DNA of 41,010 nucleotides, taken from IMG/VR virus record IMGVR_UViG_2529292921_000022; one strand, given 5' to 3'. Under the pieces are notes generated by a model. It was not told the origin of the DNA. It worked only from the letters and a program-made list of their open reading frames with translations, and searched no databases. Shown one piece after another: positions 16,107 through 33,375 of this stretch (position 1 is its first letter; the number at the start of each line of letters is the position of its first letter). A program made the position numbers and the translations under genes. This DNA is from a virus (lineage: Duplodnaviria; Heunggongvirae; Uroviricota; Caudoviricetes).

Positions 16107-17424
16107 TCTCGATGTCCTCGTCGGTAATGGATGCCCCGATGCCGGTTACGTCAGAATTTTCGCGCAAATCAGTCATAGCGGCTTTCAGTGTCATCAGACC
16201 ATCACCCAGCGCCGTACTGATTGCGTTGGTGGTGTTTAACGCCACCGTTGAGCGATCGACATCAGACATTTGCCAGAGCGGGTTAAACTCAAACGTGAAA
16301 TCATCCGGGAGCGGCTTGCCAAGTTCCGAACGATGCATGATGTCCAGTATCCGCCGCACCGGAAGACGTAAACGTCTCTCCTGCAACGAACTGATGCGGT
16401 CGTAATAGTTGGCAAGGTCTGCATCACCGGTAGAAAATCCTTTCGGGGACTGTCCGAACAACCGCACCAGTGGGATACCAACAGCGCCACTAATCTGTTC
16501 TGCAAACTGTGATAGGATGTCATCCAGACCACTGAAGCTGTACTGATGCGTTTCAAACTTATCCCGCGAGTCCATGAGCGTCATGCCTTCATTGCTCTGG
16601 AACTGTCGAATCAGGTCGATATTCTTCAGCAACGCTTCATACGCAGGACCACCAAGTGCGATAAGCTCGCGTAGCTTCTCCACGCTGTAGGTACGCAAAT
16701 GCGCTTTGTAGACCAGCTGCGCCGCGCCGACAGTAGCGCTGTCGAACGCGGTAAGACGATCCCAGATACGCTCTACAACCGACATTCCCCATTCGTTCTC
16801 GGTCATCTTCTGCTGAAATGGCAGCGTGACGCCATCAAAGCGAATCAGTCGACTGTGATGAATGCGCCAGGCAGGAATTCCCGTTGCTGTGGTCACCACA
16901 TCGTAAAACTCAGGTTTACCCAGGTCCGGCCCCATATCTTTAATGCGGCGGGTCAGTACCGGGTCAATCATCCAGCGGTCGAGCGGGAGAATCCCCTTAA
17001 ACTTGCCCTTACCGATGGTTTCGGGTCGCAGCGGGGTCATTGGTGCCTGCCCCTCAATCATGATGAAACCCACCGCGCCGCCGTAGAGGCGCGACCATTT
17101 CAGCACGTCATTCAGCGCATCCCAGATTTGCAACTCATCCAGTTGTGATTCGAGAATGCCACGATCTTTTGCATCAATTTCCGAAGTGATGCGAATGCCT
17201 TTGCGGGTCATATCATCCGGGATAGCATCGACTGCTTCGCCGATGATCCAGGATGAACGATAGGACCATTCCACCAGCATGCGGTTACGACTGGTGAAAT
17301 TAGCCCGGTAGGTGGATGCTGAGTGCTGGTTAGGTGTCTGCATCCCTACGCGGGCAATAAAATTCTCATAACCATCAGCTGTGGCCTGCGCAGTTCGCCG
17401 CAGGGCTCGTTTGTTTCGTGCCAT
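15958..17424 (-). CDS. Portal protein
   Basis: 488-aa ORF directly downstream of the large terminase with acidic C-terminus. Confidence 0.65.
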   Translation of the reverse strand: MARNKRALRRTAQATADGYENFIARVGMQTPNQHSASTYRANFTSRNRMLVEWSYRSSWIIGEAVDAIPDDMTRKGIRITSEIDAKDRGILESQLDELQIWDALNDVLKWSRLYGGAVGFIMIEGQAPMTPLRPETIGKGKFKGILPLDRWMIDPVLTRRIKDMGPDLGKPEFYDVVTTATGIPAWRIHHSRLIRFDGVTLPFQQKMTENEWGMSVVERIWDRLTAFDSATVGAAQLVYKAHLRTYSVEKLRELIALGGPAYEALLKNIDLIRQFQSNEGMTLMDSRDKFETHQYSFSGLDDILSQFAEQISGAVGIPLVRLFGQSPKGFSTGDADLANYYDRISSLQERRLRLPVRRILDIMHRSELGKPLPDDFTFEFNPLWQMSDVDRSTVALNTTNAISTALGDGLMTLKAAMTDLRENSDVTGIGASITDEDIENAEDEAPPGIGEPDDEPQEPSGGNPLSNQPTQDSAGGRRHRQWSLRWFK

Positions 17425-19046
17425 CAGGCCTGTCTCCCTAGCAGCTCCCAGATGTTCAGGGCTGAATTCATTGGGGCATAGTTGATCATCACCGAGTCGG
17501 CAAGGTTTGGCGACCGGGTTCCATCAGGCTGTTTATCAATAACGATTTTTCCCACACTATTAATGGAATAGGTCGGCTGCGAAAGCTCGATGATGAGTTT
17601 ATCTTTGAGTGCCATGCTACTGCTGATTGAGATGATTTCGTCCGGGTTGTAAGCCATACCTTCAACCACGGCGCGCCAGGTATTCTGAAAAAGTTTACGT
17701 AACCGCCACCAGCTCTGGGCTTTGGCGTTAGCGAAGAAGTCCTTGTTAAGACGTGCGGCTTGCCCGTTGTCCCCGCGAACAGCTTCATCATCCGGATCAA
17801 ATACCGCGCCACTACCTCGAAACGGTGTGGCGAGTATTGACGGTCGGCGCGCAGCGTTACGCAGTTCGTTGATAGCGCGTGCATCGCCGCGAACGCCAGC
17901 GCCCAGCCCGTCCTCGTCAAAGCGAAACTCTTCGAGGTTGTCCTGTTCGCAAAAGCCGAAAACCTTCTCGACGGACTGATAAATGTCGCTGCCCACACCG
18001 GACCATTCCCGCACATTCTCCAGGAGGAAGCCATGACGGGTGGAAAAGGCATTTTTGTCCCTGCCTTCGTCGGCGACATCCATCGCGCCAAGTCGTTTGC
18101 CTGTTGGCTGGATCCCCAGTTTGATATGCGCATCAACGGCAGCCTGTACCCATTCGGATGGAATCAGGACGCCTTCCGCTGATGCGCTGTAGTTCAGATC
18201 AAGTTCCTGTGCCACCACCACCGGATTATCGATTTTCTCGCATTCCCTGCGATACCACTCTTCATCCTTGCGAGGATCATCCCGCCAGTGGAATGTGAAT
18301 ACCGGTATCTTCCCGCCATGACGCTTCTGAGCGAACGGGTTCGCCATGCCATTAACTGAACTCAGGTCAATACGGCAACGCGTCGTTTGTGACAACGCCG
18401 CATCAATCAGCAGAGGACGCTGAAGGAATGCAGCCTCATCAACCAGATAAAGCGTGGTACGGTCACCACGACCAATATTATCGCCAGCCTCGCCTTTGAT
18501 AACGGCACCAGTTTCAGGAAACTCAACACGCATATATGGCGCGTGCTTCTTCTCGCTCCACGAACCGCGAAACTCTACAGGTAGTGTTTCCACGAACTTG
18601 CGCGCCTTCCAGAACAATGCTTTCGGGTCACCGGTGCTGTCGACGTATTCCTCTTTACGGGAGCCGAAACCGATAACCATTTCTTTGTTGAAGAGACAAA
18701 GCGAGCAGGCCAGTCCGATCGCGGTCCAACTGAGCCCCATTTCACGGGATTTTTCGGTAATACCATTCTCCCGATTGCCCCAGCGTTCCATAATCCAGTG
18801 GATCCACTCCTCCTGCTTAGGGAAGAGTAAAAACGGAATGGTCACCGGCAGGCCATAATCAATATTACGCGGGTCCGTTGTCATGCCCCAGTCGATGATG
18901 AACTGAGCCGGATTGGTTCGGTAAAACTGTTTTAGTGCAGGCAATATTTCAGGATTCTGGCGAATGCGCTGTAAGCGTTCCATCCGCCATTCAAAAACCA
19001 TCTGGTAATCAGGATGTTTAAAATCGAAGGGGAATGGTAACGGCAT
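17424..19046 (-). CDS. Terminase large subunit
   Basis: 540-aa protein with ATPase-like N-terminal region and nuclease-like C-terminal region; follows small subunit. Confidence 0.8.
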
Positions 19047-19048
19047 AC

Positions 19049-19600
19049 TTAGCCCATCATTTTTCTATACGCTTCTGCAACCTGCTCCGGCGTTAAGTTG
19101 GTAATTTCTGTTCTGACTGGTCCTCCGTCAGCACCAGTCACTTCATTTTTGACATTGTCTTTAAACGCCTGAACAGAAACATGACGCCCGAGCAACTCAA
19201 GGTTTTTAACCTTATCAGGCCATTTGATTTTCTTCAGAAGTGCGGTGCTATCTGCGGATGCCATCTCCACGACATCCATTCCTGATAACGTTGTGCGCCA
19301 TACCTTAGGCCAGTCTTTAATGGGTTTTAGCTCACCGTTTTGCAGGAGAATGTCAAGCACATCCATCTGGTCGATTTCAATAAGGCGATTAAGTACATAT
19401 TCTGCATTAATACCAACAAGATCATTGCGTTGCGCTTTCAGTTCGGCGATTCTTAACTTGATGTCAGGTTTTGACAGGTTTTCGGATGCGGTACGGTTAG
19501 CTGTCTTAGCGCTGTACCCCGCCCGAATAGCCGCTTGCGTGGCGTTTAAATCGATGAGGTACTCGCGACAGAACATCTCTTGTTTGTCGGTGAGCGCCAT
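19049..19600 (-). CDS. Terminase small subunit
   Basis: 183-aa ORF immediately upstream of TerL; ATG at 19600 with SD 'gaggt'. Confidence 0.6.
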
Positions 19601-19616
19601 TTAGTTACCTCGGGGA

Positions 19617-20078
19617 ATGATAATGAATTTATTAGATTTTTGTGTTGAAAAATATGAATCTGGAGAGCGGTCCTTCAGAAATGGAGTAGAACCAAACAAA
19701 GATAAAGTTGCTGAAATGCTGAACTTTGTGTTTACAACTCTTAAGAATGGCATTCAGGATGATGTAAGCAATTATCCCTCCATCAAAGCCCTGTTGAATC
19801 TCGAGTTGACCCCAAATGGCGGATTTAACATGAACTATCTCCCAGATCTTATCGCGCTTGTATTTGACGTTGTAACCGACCGGAATCGTAACCCGGAACT
19901 TTGGTTTCAAAAGATAGGCGGCATTTCTGATGAAATATCATTCACAATCTCTATACTTCTGTACGGTCCTATTGGGCATGTAACCCATTCAGGTAAAGGG
20001 GCCGCATATGGGAAAAATTATGAATCAGTTAGGTCTAATCTCATAGATGATTTGGATGCAAATATTTTCCACGGATAG
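19617..20078 (+). CDS. Hypothetical protein, opposite-strand moron between lysis genes and terS
   Basis: 153-aa ORF on the opposite strand to the late operon, AT-rich, no signal peptide, no recognisable family. Confidence 0.45.
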   Translation: MIMNLLDFCVEKYESGERSFRNGVEPNKDKVAEMLNFVFTTLKNGIQDDVSNYPSIKALLNLELTPNGGFNMNYLPDLIALVFDVVTDRNRNPELWFQKIGGISDEISFTISILLYGPIGHVTHSGKGAAYGKNYESVRSNLIDDLDANIFHG

Positions 20079-20215
20079 GATTTTGAGTTCTGATTTAACG
20101 GAGAGAGCAATCTGGCCTGGGGCACCGATTCGATGGCCTCCCAGTCCGGTTTTGCCATGAATTTTTCCTCTTAGTGACATTATCGAAGCTCCTTATCAAA
20201 GGAGCTTCTGTAATG

Positions 20216-20401
20216 TCAGTCCCGAACAAACGTAACCTTCGTGTTTGTCGCTCGCCTTACAAGGCGCGCCGCTTCGCGTTGCATTTCATCGATAACTTTT
20301 GGCGTCATCGGCTGATGCGCATATTTACGTTCAATCTCTGCAAAAATCCCGTTCATCGTTTCGCTGTCTGGTGGGATAACTTCAACGTTTAATCGTGCCA
20401 T
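20216..20401 (-). CDS. Small hypothetical protein downstream of Rz/Rz1
   Basis: ORF-track start at 20428 is TTG; first ATG at 20401; overlaps the Rz1 3' end, weak SD. Confidence 0.3.
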   Translation of the reverse strand: MARLNVEVIPPDSETMNGIFAEIERKYAHQPMTPKVIDEMQREAARLVRRATNTKVTFVRD

Positions 20402-20660
20402 TAGTTTGTGCTGCCCTGTTTTTCTCAAAAGTCCTGATATCAGCCTTATCCCTGTTGCACTGTGCTAACGCTGACAACAACGCAACATTCAGGTTAAGGC
20501 TGGCTCCCCACGTAAACGGGTCGGGTAAATCTGGCTGGGGTGTTTCATCCGTCAGACTGGCTGGTAACGGAACGACCGGCACCGACACGTATACCGTTCG
20601 CGTATTCGTGCAACCGCTTAACTGCGCCAGAAGGAACGATACGAACAGCGCAATCATCAT
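20382..20660 (-). CDS. Rz1-like o-spanin (outer-membrane lipoprotein)
   Basis: Begins inside Rz in another frame; 'MMIALFVSFLLAQLSGC' lipobox then Pro-rich segment 'PVVPLPASLTDETPQPDLPDP'; extends past the Rz stop; exact start uncertain. Confidence 0.5.
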   Translation of the reverse strand: MMIALFVSFLLAQLSGCTNTRTVYVSVPVVPLPASLTDETPQPDLPDPFTWGASLNLNVALLSALAQCNRDKADIRTFEKNRAAQTNGTIKR

Positions 20661-20937
20661 CCGCAACAGCCACTTTGATATCTTCCTGGGTTCTCTGTGA
20701 CTCCAGTGCGATCTGCTGTTTTGCATGCTGGTTAGCCTCTATAACTGTATTGATGATTTGCAGTGATTGCAGGACGTTACTGGTAATAGCTGTTGCAGAT
20801 TCAGCATTTCGTACAGCCTCATCAGCACGCTCCTTTTCGTGTTGATATTTGCTGTAGTAATGCCCGGCAGACCAGATAAAAGAACCGATGACGGTAACAA
20901 AGAAGGCAACAATAACCAGCTTATATCTCAGCTTCAT
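20545..20937 (-). CDS. Rz-like i-spanin
   Basis: 130 aa, N-terminal transmembrane segment then charged helical region, immediately after endolysin. Confidence 0.6.
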   Translation of the reverse strand: MKLRYKLVIVAFFVTVIGSFIWSAGHYYSKYQHEKERADEAVRNAESATAITSNVLQSLQIINTVIEANQHAKQQIALESQRTQEDIKVAVADDDCAVRIVPSGAVKRLHEYANGIRVGAGRSVTSQSDG

Positions 20938-21397
20938 TTACCACCCCACCAGCTTCTTTAAATCGGGAAATCAGGTCACCGATTCTATGTTCATACTGAC
21001 CGTAACCTGCACCAGGTAACGACGCCCAGATATTGCTGCAACGGTCAATTGCCTGACGAATATCACCGCGATCAATCATCGGTAAAGCGCCACGCTCCTT
21101 AATCTGCTGCAATGCCACAGCGTCCTGGCTTTTCGGAGAGAAGTCTTTCAGAGCAAGCTGCTTACGGTAAGCATCCCACCAGCGTGAAAGAAGCTGGTAA
21201 CGTCCGGCGGCTGTTGATTTGAGTTTGGGGTTTAGCGTGACAAGTTTGCGGGGGTGATCGGAGTAATCAGTGAACAGTTCGCCACCAACAATAACATCAT
21301 AACCGTGGTTACGTGTCGGTTGTCGCCCGTTATCCGTTCCTTCTGACCATGCCACCATATCCAGGAAAGCTTTACGCTGTGAATTTAGTGCCTGCAT
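20921..21397 (-). CDS. R: Endolysin, lambda R-like lytic transglycosylase
   Basis: 158 aa; near-identity along the length to lambda R as recalled from memory (NQRKAFLDM.AWSEGTDNGRQ.TRNHGYDVIVGGELFTDYSDHPRKLVTLNPKLKST). Confidence 0.85.
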   Translation of the reverse strand: MQALNSQRKAFLDMVAWSEGTDNGRQPTRNHGYDVIVGGELFTDYSDHPRKLVTLNPKLKSTAAGRYQLLSRWWDAYRKQLALKDFSPKSQDAVALQQIKERGALPMIDRGDIRQAIDRCSNIWASLPGAGYGQYEHRIGDLISRFKEAGGVVNEAEI

Positions 21398-21400
21398 AAA

Positions 21401-21742
21401 TTACTCCTTCGATCTACCAAATTTGTTACCGATTACTCGCATTGCAGCCCCACGAATAGCATCGACACCGATCAGCCCCACGCCACCACCAATGGCAACA
21501 GAAAGCGATTTAGGCCATCCGACATACTCAAGAGCGGATGCAAAGGTCAGCGTCAGAGCGCCACATAGCAAAATCTCGAGCGTTTTTCGCTTCCAGCCAC
21601 CACCACCGCCAAAATAGGCGATGCGCAAACCAGCCATAACGATCGACATAATCACTGCGCCCAGCGGTGTGTCTCCACGCCACCAACTTTGTAAGAGTTC
21701 CAGTAAGTCAGGCCAGGAATGAGGGACATTGTGCATTTTCAT
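21401..21742 (-). CDS. Holin with dual-start (antiholin/holin) motif
   Basis: ORF-track start at 21751 is GTG; two in-frame ATGs follow as Met-Lys-Met after SD 'ggaggtgagg'; three predicted transmembrane segments. Confidence 0.65.
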   Translation of the reverse strand: MKMHNVPHSWPDLLELLQSWWRGDTPLGAVIMSIVMAGLRIAYFGGGGGWKRKTLEILLCGALTLTFASALEYVGWPKSLSVAIGGGVGLIGVDAIRGAAMRVIGNKFGRSKE

Positions 21743-21959
21743 AAGCCTCACCTCCGAAAGTTCGGATGGTGCTAAATGTAAGATTCAGGCTCTCTGGCTT
21801 GCTCACAAGAAGTCAAGGATGTTTCCGGAGCCTAACAACGAAAAAGCCCCGGGACATGCCAGGGCCAGATGGAGTACCAGATTAAGCTTCTGGCGGTATA
21901 TCCTCGTGTTTGATATCGTTAAATCGCCAAAAGTAACCATATCAATTAAAGGAGTATAT

Positions 21960-22154
21960 ATGGCTAGTTTTACTGTCCGCGTTGAGCTTGTGGGTGCATC
22001 ATCCGATGACTACGCTCGCCTTCATGAGGCGATGGAATCCCGAAGATACTTTCGCGAAATTCAAGATGGAGCAGGAAACTGGTTTTATCTTCCAGACGCT
22101 GAGTACACAGCCGAAAAAACGCATCTGCTCGCGCAGTCCGAGAAGAAGTTGTAG
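21960..22154 (+). CDS. Small hypothetical protein in the Q-S region
   Basis: 64-aa ORF from ATG 21960 preceded by strong SD 'aaaggag'; the ORF-track version starts far upstream without SD. Confidence 0.4.
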   Translation: MASFTVRVELVGASSDDYARLHEAMESRRYFREIQDGAGNWFYLPDAEYTAEKTHLLAQSEKKL

Positions 22155-23154: not shown

Positions 23155-23316
23155 AACGACCTCGCGTTTCGATAATTTTTACCTCACCACCTTCAGGTTC
23201 CAATCATCGGGTGGCGAACTGTGCAGGGTTGGAACTACCGGTCGAAACATCCGGTGCACCTTTCGGTGCCCCCACACAGCCCGCCATAAATCGCGAATGT
23301 GACTGTGCTTAGCGCA

Positions 23317-23337
23317 TAAAAAAACCGCCAGCGCGGT
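23317..23337 (-). terminator. tR'-like terminator downstream of the late promoter
   Basis: Stem ccgcgctggcgg followed by a 7-nt U-run on the minus strand, about 75 nt downstream of the predicted start site. Confidence 0.5.
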
Positions 23338-23397
23338 ATGCACCGTTTCGATATCCGGGGTTCCAATCCCGACGCCAGATTTTGCTGGCGCTTCGGA

Positions 23398-25423: not shown

Positions 25424-25579
25424 TTACTCCTCAGGTTCGTAAGCTGTGAAGACAGCGACCTCCGTCTGGCCGGTTCGGATTCGTACCTCGCAGAGGTCCT
25501 TCCTCGTTACCAGTGCCGTCACTATGACGGTTAAACAGATGACAATCAGGGCGACTAACATCGCCTTTTGCTGCTTCAT
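25424..25579 (-). CDS. hok: Hok/Gef-family type I toxin
   Basis: 51-codon minus-strand ORF absent from the ORF track: MKQQKAMLVALIVICLTVIVTALVTRKDLCEVRIRTGQTEVAVFTAYEPEE; SD 'aaggagaag' matches the plasmid R1 hok leader as recalled. Confidence 0.8.
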   Translation of the reverse strand: MKQQKAMLVALIVICLTVIVTALVTRKDLCEVRIRTGQTEVAVFTAYEPEE

Positions 25580-25634
25580 AGCCTGCTTCTCCTTGCCTTT
25601 CGGTCCGTAAGAGGCTAATCTCTATGTGTCGCAT
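25431..25634 (-). CDS. mok: mok (modulator of killing) overlapping reading frame
   Basis: 67-aa ORF overlapping hok in another frame, starting upstream in the leader; the leader resembles the R1 mok region. Confidence 0.55.
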   Translation of the reverse strand: MRHIEISLLRTERQGEAGYEAAKGDVSRPDCHLFNRHSDGTGNEEGPLRGTNPNRPDGGRCLHSLRT

Positions 25635-25695
25635 AGATATGGCCTCAGATTAATGTTAAGCGTCTTGCAGGACGCGTAATGTTAACTGGGGCTTT
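25628..25695 (+). ncRNA. sok: Predicted Sok-like antisense RNA (approximate)
   Basis: Plus-strand promoter-like -35 TTGCCT / 17 bp / -10 TAATCT at 25593..25621, antisense to the mok translation initiation region; ends approximate. Confidence 0.35.
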
Positions 25696-25836
25696 TCTCT
25701 ATCTGCCTTTTGGTGTTCATGCCTGAGACAGATAGCCTCAAGCACCCGCAGTTATTCTACTTAACTAAGATTTCCCCGCAAACCGTTTTTGTCCGGCACA
25801 GTAAATATCCAACTAAACCAATGGCGTTCGCTGTAT

Positions 25837-32967: not shown

Positions 32968-33375
32968 ACCATTTATTGGATTAATTCAATATTCTTGCTG
33001 TAGGGGTATAGCCGAGGCCACCAAAGCCCGGAGGTGGTGAAATAAAACCGGGCACAATACGAAGGCGCATTTCCGGTATCCATAAAGAGTCGGTCTTGTC
33101 TGTTAAATTTAAATGGTGGGAGTGCGCCTCCGGTTGTAAATAACGACATTGCTGTGTCTAGTTTTTGGCGGCATCAGTTCTACTCCGTAGCTGCCCTGCC
33201 GCCCCTTTTTAAAGTGAATTTTGTGATGCGGTGAATGCGGCTAAGCGCACGCGGCGCAGTTAAAAGCATCAGTGTTATGGGGGGATTATCCGGCGTTAAT
33301 TGTTAACTGGTTAACGTCACCTGGAGGCACCAGGCACCGCATCGACAAAATTCATTTGTAAAAATGGAGATAATT

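What the first reader, a model, noticed from the sequence alone, without database searches (positions are those of the whole stretch)
19601..20215. Opposite-strand AT-rich gene between the lysis cassette and terS
A 153-aa ORF (19617..20078) is encoded against the direction of the late operon, in the slot where lambda carries bor. It has no signal peptide or lipobox and no family I recognise, and its composition is AT-rich relative to flanking phage genes. Any promoter must lie within the 5' end of terS, and a 10-bp hairpin (about 20187..20210) sits downstream. Opposite-strand genes here are often lysogenic-conversion or defence genes.
Basis: partly seen in the sequence, partly recalled or inferred. 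Interest (0 to 1): 0.5.

Follow-up and report, generated by a model that had tools for sequence, protein, structure and literature searches.

The report
Orphan accessory gene beside prophage terS
A real but uncharacterised 151-residue gene sits backwards between the lysis and DNA-packaging genes of an E. coli prophage, in a slot where related prophages carry many unrelated small genes, so it is probably a swappable accessory gene whose function is still unknown.

Summary
A + strand ORF (best start 19623, stop 20078, 151 aa) lies against the late operon between the lysis genes and terS. It has 39% GC against 49% for the window. It is a real gene: it shows purifying selection and its length is conserved in about 27 sequence clusters from Enterobacterales and Pseudomonas. 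The rival antisense ORF is broken in an ortholog. No Pfam, PHROG, NCBIfam, PADLOC or PDB sequence match was found. A confident all-alpha AlphaFold model has no convincing structural neighbour. Family members always lie antisense at the lysis/packaging junction of lambdoid prophages. In E. coli the same slot holds at least 10 unrelated AT-rich genes, each starting 20-27 bp from the terS start codon. The first 80 nt of terS are 92-100% identical across genera and probably anchor the exchange. The gene is rare: 6 of 5,426 complete E. coli genomes carry it. No consensus promoter was found. The most likely reading is a lysogen-expressed cargo gene that acts by binding in phage-phage conflict. That function is inferred, not shown.

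The parts
19623..20078 (+). Coding sequence of the 151-aa orphan protein (the alternative in-frame ATG at 19617 gives 153 aa and is less likely)
   Evidence: ORF list. PGAP start in an identical prophage. 27 homologous clusters of 139-157 aa. dN/dS 0.09-0.33. AlphaFold pLDDT 90.6.
19612..19616 (+). Shine-Dalgarno GGGGA of the accessory gene, 6 nt before ATG 19623. It abuts the terS Shine-Dalgarno on the other strand.
   Evidence: Sequence. Purine-rich equivalents at the same distance in other loci.
19607..19611 (-). Shine-Dalgarno GAGGT of terS, back to back with the accessory gene's ribosome-binding site
   Evidence: Sequence.
19521..19600 (-). First 80 nt of terS. They are 92-100% identical across E. 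coli, Klebsiella, Rahnella and IMG/VR loci while the rest of terS is mosaic. Proposed left recombination anchor of the cargo slot. Any nearby promoter of the + strand gene would have to lie here.
   Evidence: The same 85 bp survives as a relic in P22.
19049..19600 (-). terS (Terminase_2 family), divergent neighbour
   Evidence: Pfam PF03592, E = 7e-40.
19640..20116 (.). Segment replaced by unrelated DNA in the otherwise 95-99% identical REL606/BL21 prophage. This is the exchangeable cargo body. The ribosome-binding site and the first ~6 codons lie outside it.
   Evidence: blastn boundaries 19000-19639 and 20117-20734. Junction alignment.
20112..20153 (+). Terminator-like stem-loop (12 pairs, about -21 kcal/mol) followed by TTTT, 34 nt after the stop codon. 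Candidate terminator of the accessory gene.
   Evidence: Folds. The Klebsiella ortholog has an equivalent stem plus TTTTG, and other family loci have strong hairpins just after the stop. The consensus scan did not call it because it has only 4 T.
20126..20158 (-). 5' stub (MAKPDWEAIES) of a different, 249-aa small-terminase-like gene that is full length in E. coli C25. A scar of a packaging-module replacement.
20175..20218 (.). Part of the shared right flank. It overlaps the stop codon of the small late-strand ORF.
20216..20401 (-). 61-aa late-strand ORF (phrog_12811, unknown function). Right-hand neighbour of the slot.

Best explanation
The ORF is a genuine single-gene accessory cassette (a 'moron'). 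It sits in a recombination hotspot at the junction of the lysis and packaging modules of a lambdoid E. coli prophage. It encodes a soluble, acidic, compact all-alpha protein of a small orphan family.

Shown: it is coding, conserved and rare. It always lies antisense at this junction. Related prophages exchange it for unrelated genes. The exchanges are bounded on one side by the near-invariant first 80 nt of terS.

Inferred: it is transcribed on its own, away from the Q-dependent late operon, and ends at the stem-loop at 20112-20153. It would therefore be made mainly in the lysogen. During lytic growth the late transcript must cross it in antisense to reach terS, which would silence it.

Inferred with least support: the protein acts by binding another protein rather than by catalysis. 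No Cys, His, Ser, Lys or Glu is invariant, and the conserved core is an amphipathic helix plus an NxNP-LW loop. By analogy with packaging-site-adjacent hotspots of P2/P4 and with opposite-strand exclusion genes of P22 and lambda, its role would be to interfere with competing phages (superinfection exclusion or defence).
For: Real gene:
- Homologs keep a length of 139-157 aa, and only 27 clusters at 50% identity exist among 1.84 billion proteins.
- dN/dS is 0.33 (E. coli vs Klebsiella) and 0.09 (Klebsiella vs Rahnella). Other frames are full of stops.
- AlphaFold with 29 sequences gives pLDDT 87.5-90.6 in all five models.

Position:
- Every locus with upstream DNA has the gene antisense next to the packaging module.
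- The gap to a Terminase_2 terS is 22-37 bp in most enterobacterial loci.
- In four loci (three enterobacterial-type and Pseudomonas phage PseuP_222) a few genes are inserted between.
- In Pseudomonas prophages it lies next to a DUF2280-type terS module.

Hotspot:
- 11 sampled E. coli prophages with the same terS head carry at least 10 mutually unrelated + strand genes starting 20-27 bp from terS.
- All are AT-rich, 0.37-0.44 GC.
- This gene is in 6 of 5,426 genomes and the REL606 type in 91.
- The terS head is 92-100% identical across genera.

Independent unit:
- It has its own Shine-Dalgarno.
- Terminator-like stems follow the stop here and in orthologs.
- The homologous P22 site has an 86-aa opposite-strand ORF with AGGAG and a canonical terminator.

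Fast divergence relative to terS: 42% vs 92% identity for the L004/L015 pair.

Precedents:
- Defence hotspots lie directly next to cos in P2/P4 (PMC9122126).
- A lysogen-expressed antisense unit in P22-like BTP1 late genes causes exclusion (PMC7067206).
Against: - No consensus sigma-70 promoter lies upstream. Promoter scans in orthologous loci are not above chance.
- No expression data were available.
- None of the cargo genes sampled from this slot matches a known defence family in PADLOC, so guilt by location is weak.
- Many classical exclusion proteins are membrane proteins, and this one is cytoplasmic.
Confidence: 0.4

Rival explanations
1. It is a counter-defence or host-takeover protein. 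It would be made early after infection or induction and would bind and neutralise a host defence or host factor for the phage's own benefit.
For: It is small, acidic (pI 4.8), soluble and single-domain, with no catalytic signature, which is typical of inhibitor proteins. It diverges faster than the neighbouring terS. It is restricted to phage genomes.
Against: It is oriented against every lytic transcription unit around it, so the late transcript would oppose it. No early promoter is nearby. No similarity to any solved anti-defence protein.
Confidence: 0.2
2. The main function is at the RNA or DNA level. The + strand transcript would act as an antisense RNA against the highly conserved terS 5' end of this and related phages. 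Alternatively the unit would buffer leaky late transcription. The protein would be secondary.
For: The start codons of the two genes are 22 bp apart and their ribosome-binding sites abut. A transcript starting inside terS would be complementary to the near-invariant terS head. A precedent is the STnc6030 antisense RNA of BTP1, which excludes superinfecting phage (PMC7067206). P22 keeps the 85-bp terS head as a relic next to a divergent ORF.
Against: The protein sequence itself is under purifying selection and folds confidently. Family members in Pseudomonas and some enterobacterial loci are separated from terS by 64-1,200 bp and other genes. No promoter was found in the terS head.
Confidence: 0.1
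3. It has a packaging-linked function. The protein would work with or on the small terminase, for example to modulate packaging or resist packaging-hijacking satellites.
For: It is consistently adjacent to the packaging module over a large evolutionary distance, from 25% identity in Pseudomonas phage PseuP_222 to 100% in E. coli.
Against: The same site holds at least 10 unrelated genes in phages with the same terS. Family members sit next to different terS families: Terminase_2, DUF2280 and an unclassified type. The antisense orientation argues against co-expression with terS.
Confidence: 0.1
4. It is a host-directed lysogenic-conversion factor of the Bor type (serum resistance or another surface or virulence trait).
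For: Same slot and orientation as lambda bor (established lambda map; layout).
Against: No signal peptide, lipobox or membrane segment. No match to Bor or any other Pfam family. The family occurs in soil and plant-associated Pseudomonas, Rahnella, Rouxiella and Erwinia as well as enteric bacteria.
Confidence: 0.05
5. It is not a functional gene: either a chance ORF, or the antisense ORF 19632..19910 is the real one.
For: No promoter was found and no family annotation exists.
Against: The reading frame and length are conserved across genera. dN/dS is below 1. The antisense ORF has 7 stops in Rahnella. The fold prediction is confident.
Confidence: 0.02

Closest known systems
Lambda bor (opposite-strand moron between Rz/Rz1 and the packaging genes)
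   Same: Same slot and same antisense orientation relative to the late operon. A single small accessory gene that is not needed for the lytic cycle.
   Different: Bor is an exported lipoprotein. This protein has no signal peptide, lipobox or membrane segment and no sequence similarity to Bor.
[quoted passage not shown] 2022, PMC9122126)
   Same: Conserved flanks with highly variable, AT-rich cargo directly beside the DNA-packaging locus. Exchange is likely by homologous recombination in the flanks.
   Different: This is a lambdoid prophage with a Terminase_2 terS. The cargo is mostly single small genes. None of the sampled cargo matches a known defence system. The pac or cos site itself was not located.
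Morons as defined for lambdoid phages (extra transcription units inserted between conserved genes, e.g. HK97 gp15)
   Same: Present, absent or replaced among close relatives. Deviant base composition. Its own ribosome-binding site and a downstream stem-loop.
   Different: No recognisable promoter. The start site is fixed 20-27 bp from terS, and the first codons are shared with at least one unrelated occupant.
STnc6030 antisense RNA of Salmonella prophage BTP1 (Owen et al. 2020, PMC7067206)
   Same: An antisense transcription unit embedded in the late region of a P22-like or lambdoid prophage. Precedent for lysogen expression and exclusion of related phages.
   Different: STnc6030 is non-coding. 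This locus encodes a conserved protein under purifying selection.
Occupant of the same slot in E. coli B / BL21 / REL606 (WP_000762846.1, phrog_30882)
   Same: Same site, orientation, ribosome-binding-site position and a similar first six codons. Also of unknown function.
   Different: No detectable sequence similarity beyond the first codons. It is far commoner: 91 vs 6 complete E. coli genomes.

Membership tests
Lambda Bor lipoprotein family | Sequence match to the Bor family model | tested here: not met
   No Pfam or NCBIfam hit at E <= 1.
Lambda Bor lipoprotein family | Signal peptide with a lipobox cysteine | tested here: not met
   The N-terminus MNLLDFCVEKYESGER has no hydrophobic h-region. 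The maximum 19-residue hydropathy is 1.06.
Moron (independent accessory transcription unit in a lambdoid phage) | Present in some and absent or replaced in closely related phages whose flanking genes are conserved | tested here: met
   Flanks are 95-99% identical in REL606 with a different insert. At least 10 different occupants were found. The gene is in 6 of 5,426 genomes.
Moron (independent accessory transcription unit in a lambdoid phage) | Base composition unlike the surrounding phage genes | tested here: met
   GC 0.39 vs 0.46-0.53 in neighbours and 0.49 for the window.
Moron (independent accessory transcription unit in a lambdoid phage) | Own terminator | tested here: inconclusive
   Stem-loop 20112-20149 plus TTTT (about -21 kcal/mol), with comparable hairpins after orthologs. 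The consensus scan did not call it.
Moron (independent accessory transcription unit in a lambdoid phage) | Own promoter, active in the lysogen | tested here: inconclusive
   No sigma-70-like site on the + strand within 800 bp upstream. Activity cannot be tested with these tools.
Packaging-site-adjacent anti-phage hotspot (P2/P4 type) | Conserved flanks with many alternative cargo sets | tested here: met
Packaging-site-adjacent anti-phage hotspot (P2/P4 type) | Cargo includes recognised defence systems | tested here: not met
   The target, the REL606 occupant and seven other slot genes from six loci were scanned. None hit PADLOC at E <= 0.01. The other slot occupants scanned against PHROGs fall in families of unknown function or match none.
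Packaging-site-adjacent anti-phage hotspot (P2/P4 type) | Directly adjacent to the cos or pac site | not testable with these tools
   It is adjacent to terS. The pac site of this phage type was not mapped here.
Packaging-site-adjacent anti-phage hotspot (P2/P4 type) | Cargo protects against phage infection | not testable with these tools
   Needs plating assays.
Known anti-phage defence protein families (PADLOC 2.0) | Profile match | tested here: not met
   No hit for the window protein.

The most novel reading that the evidence does not exclude
The junction next to terS would be the lambdoid counterpart of the cos-adjacent defence hotspots of P2/P4. It would be a fixed 'docking site' in which the near-invariant first 80 nt of terS provides both the recombination anchor and the expression signals for interchangeable antisense cargo. 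The 151-aa family would be a new single-protein anti-phage (or anti-satellite) factor with a previously unseen all-alpha fold. The dozen other unknown occupants would then be an untapped set of conflict genes.
Probability: 0.25. Interest if true: 0.65.

Novelty: new member of a known kind. Interest (0 to 1): 0.4.

Why it matters
On its own this is one more prophage accessory gene of unknown function. Its value lies in the context. It marks a sharply defined, easily recognisable exchange site: an antisense gene starting about 22 bp from a near-invariant terS head. In E. coli prophages this site carries many unrelated families, all uncharacterised, including one present in the laboratory strains BL21 and REL606. 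If such sites behave like the P2/P4 hotspots, they offer a cheap way to find new phage-conflict genes. The 151-aa family has a confident model and no structural neighbour, so it would be a new fold with a testable phenotype.

Tried and rejected
- **Profile libraries.** Pfam, PHROGs, NCBIfam and PADLOC gave nothing for the window protein. Pfam and PHROGs gave nothing for any of the 30 family members.
- **PDB sequence search.** A family-profile search found only chance-level hits, E >= 0.06.
- **Lysozyme-like reading.** Repeated weak endolysin and transglycosylase hits suggested it. I rejected it because no acidic catalytic residue pattern is conserved.
- **Promoter search.** Neither the tool scan nor a relaxed custom scan found a site in the window. 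Scans in four orthologous loci were not above chance.
- **Rfam.** Nothing in or next to the gene.
- **Literature.** Searches for the accession numbers and for this hotspot found no description.
- **'Empty site' in FDAARGOS_1059.** It is a deletion derivative of the REL606-type locus, not an ancestral empty site.
- **Species-representative genomes.** The scan returned only one further locus, in Rouxiella.
- **Specific coupling to Terminase_2 terS.** Rejected because Pseudomonas and Citrobacter members sit beside other terS types.

Full report
**1. What is there**

The window is a lambdoid E. coli prophage with its late genes on the - strand. These are holin (21401-21751), GH24 lysozyme (20921-21397), Rz/Rz1 (20382-20937), a 61-aa ORF of phrog_12811 (20216-20401), terS (19049-19600, Terminase_2, E = 7e-40) and terL (17424-19046).

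Between the 61-aa ORF and terS lies the reported + strand ORF, 19617..20078. The likelier start is 19623 (151 aa):
- The GGGGA motif at 19612-19616 is 6 nt upstream of it.
- The 19617 ATG is not conserved in Klebsiella.
- PGAP uses 19623 in a 99.9% identical prophage (WP_001050348.1, 'hypothetical protein').

The gene has 39% GC against 49% for the window. The start codons of terS and this gene are 22 bp apart, and their Shine-Dalgarno sequences (19607-19611 on the - strand, 19612-19616 on the + strand) touch each other.

**2. It is a real gene**

- A word-indexed search found seven relatives of 39-94% identity in Klebsiella, Rahnella and unnamed assemblies.
- An exhaustive profile search of 1.84 billion representatives found 27 clusters, 25 of them 139-157 aa long and two shorter (92 and 113 aa). 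There are no fusions to other domains.
- Named members come from Yersinia, Enterobacter, Citrobacter, Erwinia, Rouxiella and fluorescent Pseudomonas. All are labelled 'hypothetical'.
- Sense-frame dN/dS is 0.33 (E. coli vs Klebsiella) and 0.09 (Klebsiella vs Rahnella).

**3. The protein**

It is soluble (no hydrophobic stretch), mildly acidic (pI 4.8, net charge -7) and has one cysteine.

AlphaFold with 7 sequences gave pLDDT 88. With 29 sequences it gave 90.6, with all five models at 87.5-90.6. The model is a compact all-alpha domain with main helices at 3-12, 26-43, 73-87, 101-114 and 133-145.

Invariant residues are F68, D75 and F81. Nearly invariant are N88, W94, G115 and L140 (N20-G21 in most). 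The signature is ADLIALVFDVVTExNRNPxLW. No Cys, His, Ser, Lys or Glu is invariant, so I see no catalytic site. This is an inference.

**4. Position is the strongest signal**

In every locus that includes upstream DNA, the family member lies antisense at the lysis/packaging junction.
- It sits 22-37 bp from a Terminase_2 terS in E. coli, Klebsiella, Rahnella and one IMG/VR contig.
- It sits 430-1,220 bp away, with one or two inserted small genes, in three IMG/VR contigs and in Pseudomonas phage PseuP_222 (25% identity).
- In Pseudomonas prophages it is beside a DUF2280-type small terminase module. In Citrobacter it is beside an unclassified 200-aa gene.

The association is therefore with the junction, not with one terS family. 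The protein diverges much faster than the adjacent terS, for example 42% vs 92% identity for the same pair of loci.

**5. The slot is an exchange hotspot**

Only 6 of 5,426 complete E. coli genomes carry the gene, but 327 share one or both flanks.

REL606/BL21 has 95-99% identical flanks. It replaces window 19640-20116 with an unrelated 182-aa gene in the same orientation. The ribosome-binding site and the first six codons are alike (MNLLDF vs MKLEDF, 14 of 18 nt), so the joint lies inside the reading frame.

Sampling nine more prophages with the same terS head gave these occupants:
- a YkgJ-type Cys-cluster protein;
- a YodC-family protein together with a DUF6953 protein;
- hypotheticals of 72, 90, 108, 111 and 171 aa.

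Each starts 20-27 bp from terS, except the 108-aa gene, whose annotated start overlaps terS. All have 37-44% GC. They are mutually unrelated by BLASTP, apart from two alleles of the 90-aa gene, and none matches the family profile. They fall in PHROGs of unknown function, and those scanned against PADLOC gave no hit. One apparent empty site is a deletion that kept the REL606-type ribosome-binding site and two codons.

**6. The flanks explain the exchange**

The first 80 nt of terS (19521-19600) are 92-100% identical in all enterobacterial loci, while the rest of terS is mosaic, down to about 20-50% nucleotide identity in 40-nt blocks.

The same 85 bp survives in phage P22 as an unannotated relic with a mutated start codon. 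It lies between rha/orf25 and orf80, upstream of P22's own unrelated gene 3. It is followed there by an opposite-strand 86-aa ORF with an AGGAG site and a canonical terminator.

On the right side of the window, 20126-20158 (- strand) encodes MAKPDWEAIES. This is the first 11 codons of a different 249-aa terminase-small-subunit-like gene that is intact in E. coli C25.

So 5' ends of terS genes are recurrent recombination joints. The accessory gene plus the Terminase_2 packaging module replaced another packaging module here.

**7. Transcription signals**

No sigma-70-like promoter was found on the + strand upstream. Scans of orthologous loci do not exceed chance.

Downstream, a 12-pair stem (20112-20149) followed by TTTT is a plausible terminator. 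The Klebsiella ortholog has the same stem, and most other family loci have strong hairpins just after the stop.

It has no T-run, and it lies in the flank shared with other cargo types and with the C25 arrangement.

The late transcript must read through the whole gene in antisense to reach terS. Expression of the accessory gene and late transcription should therefore oppose each other. This is an inference.

**8. Interpretation**

Shown: a real, rare, conserved orphan gene; fixed antisense placement at the lysis/packaging junction; cassette-like exchange anchored on a near-invariant terS head.

Inferred: the gene is an independent transcription unit expressed in the lysogen, and the protein is a binding protein used in phage-phage conflict. 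Three points support this:
- Opposite-strand genes in lambdoid and P22 late regions are typically lysogen-expressed conversion or exclusion functions (established knowledge for bor and for sieA/mnt of P22).
- P2/P4 hotspots next to cos hold anti-phage systems (PMC9122126).
- BTP1 has a lysogen-expressed antisense exclusion unit in its late genes (PMC7067206).

Against: no promoter, no expression data, no known defence gene among the slot's occupants, and no structural lead. I put this reading at about 0.4. Counter-defence is at 0.2, RNA-level and packaging-linked roles at 0.1 each, a Bor-like role at 0.05, and 'not a gene' at 0.02.

**9. Verdict**

It is a new member (an orphan family) of a known kind of element. 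Interest is moderate, mainly because the locus defines a recognisable hotspot full of uncharacterised genes.

Noticed in passing
L002:3221-3769 (E. coli REL606 NC_012967 790887-791435; also BL21 strains): The occupant of the same slot in E. coli B/BL21 is a 182-aa protein (WP_000762846.1, phrog_30882) found in 91 complete genomes. By eye its sequence has an R-S-E-like pattern (LVLYRGE ... FCWTTD ... GENEFTV) that recalls ADP-ribosyltransferases. No Pfam, NCBIfam, PADLOC or PDB sequence hit supports this.
   Followed up: partly
L030:900-984 and L030:1019-1316 (phage P22-pbi AF527608, about 40409-40825, opposite strand): P22 carries an 85-bp relic of the Terminase_2 terS 5' end with its start codon mutated. 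Next to it is an 86-aa opposite-strand ORF (phrog_16546), unannotated in this record, with an AGGAG ribosome-binding site and a canonical rho-independent terminator.
   Followed up: partly
window 20126-20158 (- strand): An eleven-codon stub (MAKPDWEAIES) of a different 249-aa small-terminase-like gene that is intact in E. coli C25 (L023:2285-3034). It is a scar of a packaging-module swap, and its sequence forms the right arm of the terminator-like stem.
   Followed up: yes
L019:1702-1730 (E. coli FDAARGOS_1059): An apparently empty slot. It keeps the REL606-type ribosome-binding site and ATGAAG, then jumps into the small phrog_12811 ORF, which is shortened to 45 aa. It is a deletion, not an ancestral empty site.
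   Followed up: partly
window 21960-22154 (+ strand): A second opposite-strand small ORF (64 aa, MASFTVRVEL...) with a strong AAGGAG site, lying between the holin gene and the antiterminator region. It has no Pfam hit and is not annotated in the matching RefSeq prophage.
   Followed up: partly
window 23207-23391, 25574-25747, 33153-33204, 38666-38844, 40406-40549: Rfam matches elsewhere in the window: C4 antisense RNA and isrK (adjacent), sok antitoxin RNA, DicF, RalA antitoxin RNA, and the chromosomal SraC/RyeA-SdsR/RyeB pair just beyond the integrase end of the prophage.
   Followed up: no
L016:3802-4236 (IMG/VR contig 2548876519_000005): In one relative, a 144-aa + strand gene is inserted between terS and the family member. 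By eye it has a nuclease-like D...(I/V)Q(V)K pattern (VDIIATIDGSKSISIQVKG). No Pfam, PADLOC or PDB sequence hit was found.
   Followed up: partly
L011 and L012 vs window 19623-20078: Among near-identical E. coli and IMG/VR copies of the gene, the few differences seen (2-3 per copy) are all non-synonymous and none is synonymous. The counts are too small to interpret.
   Followed up: no
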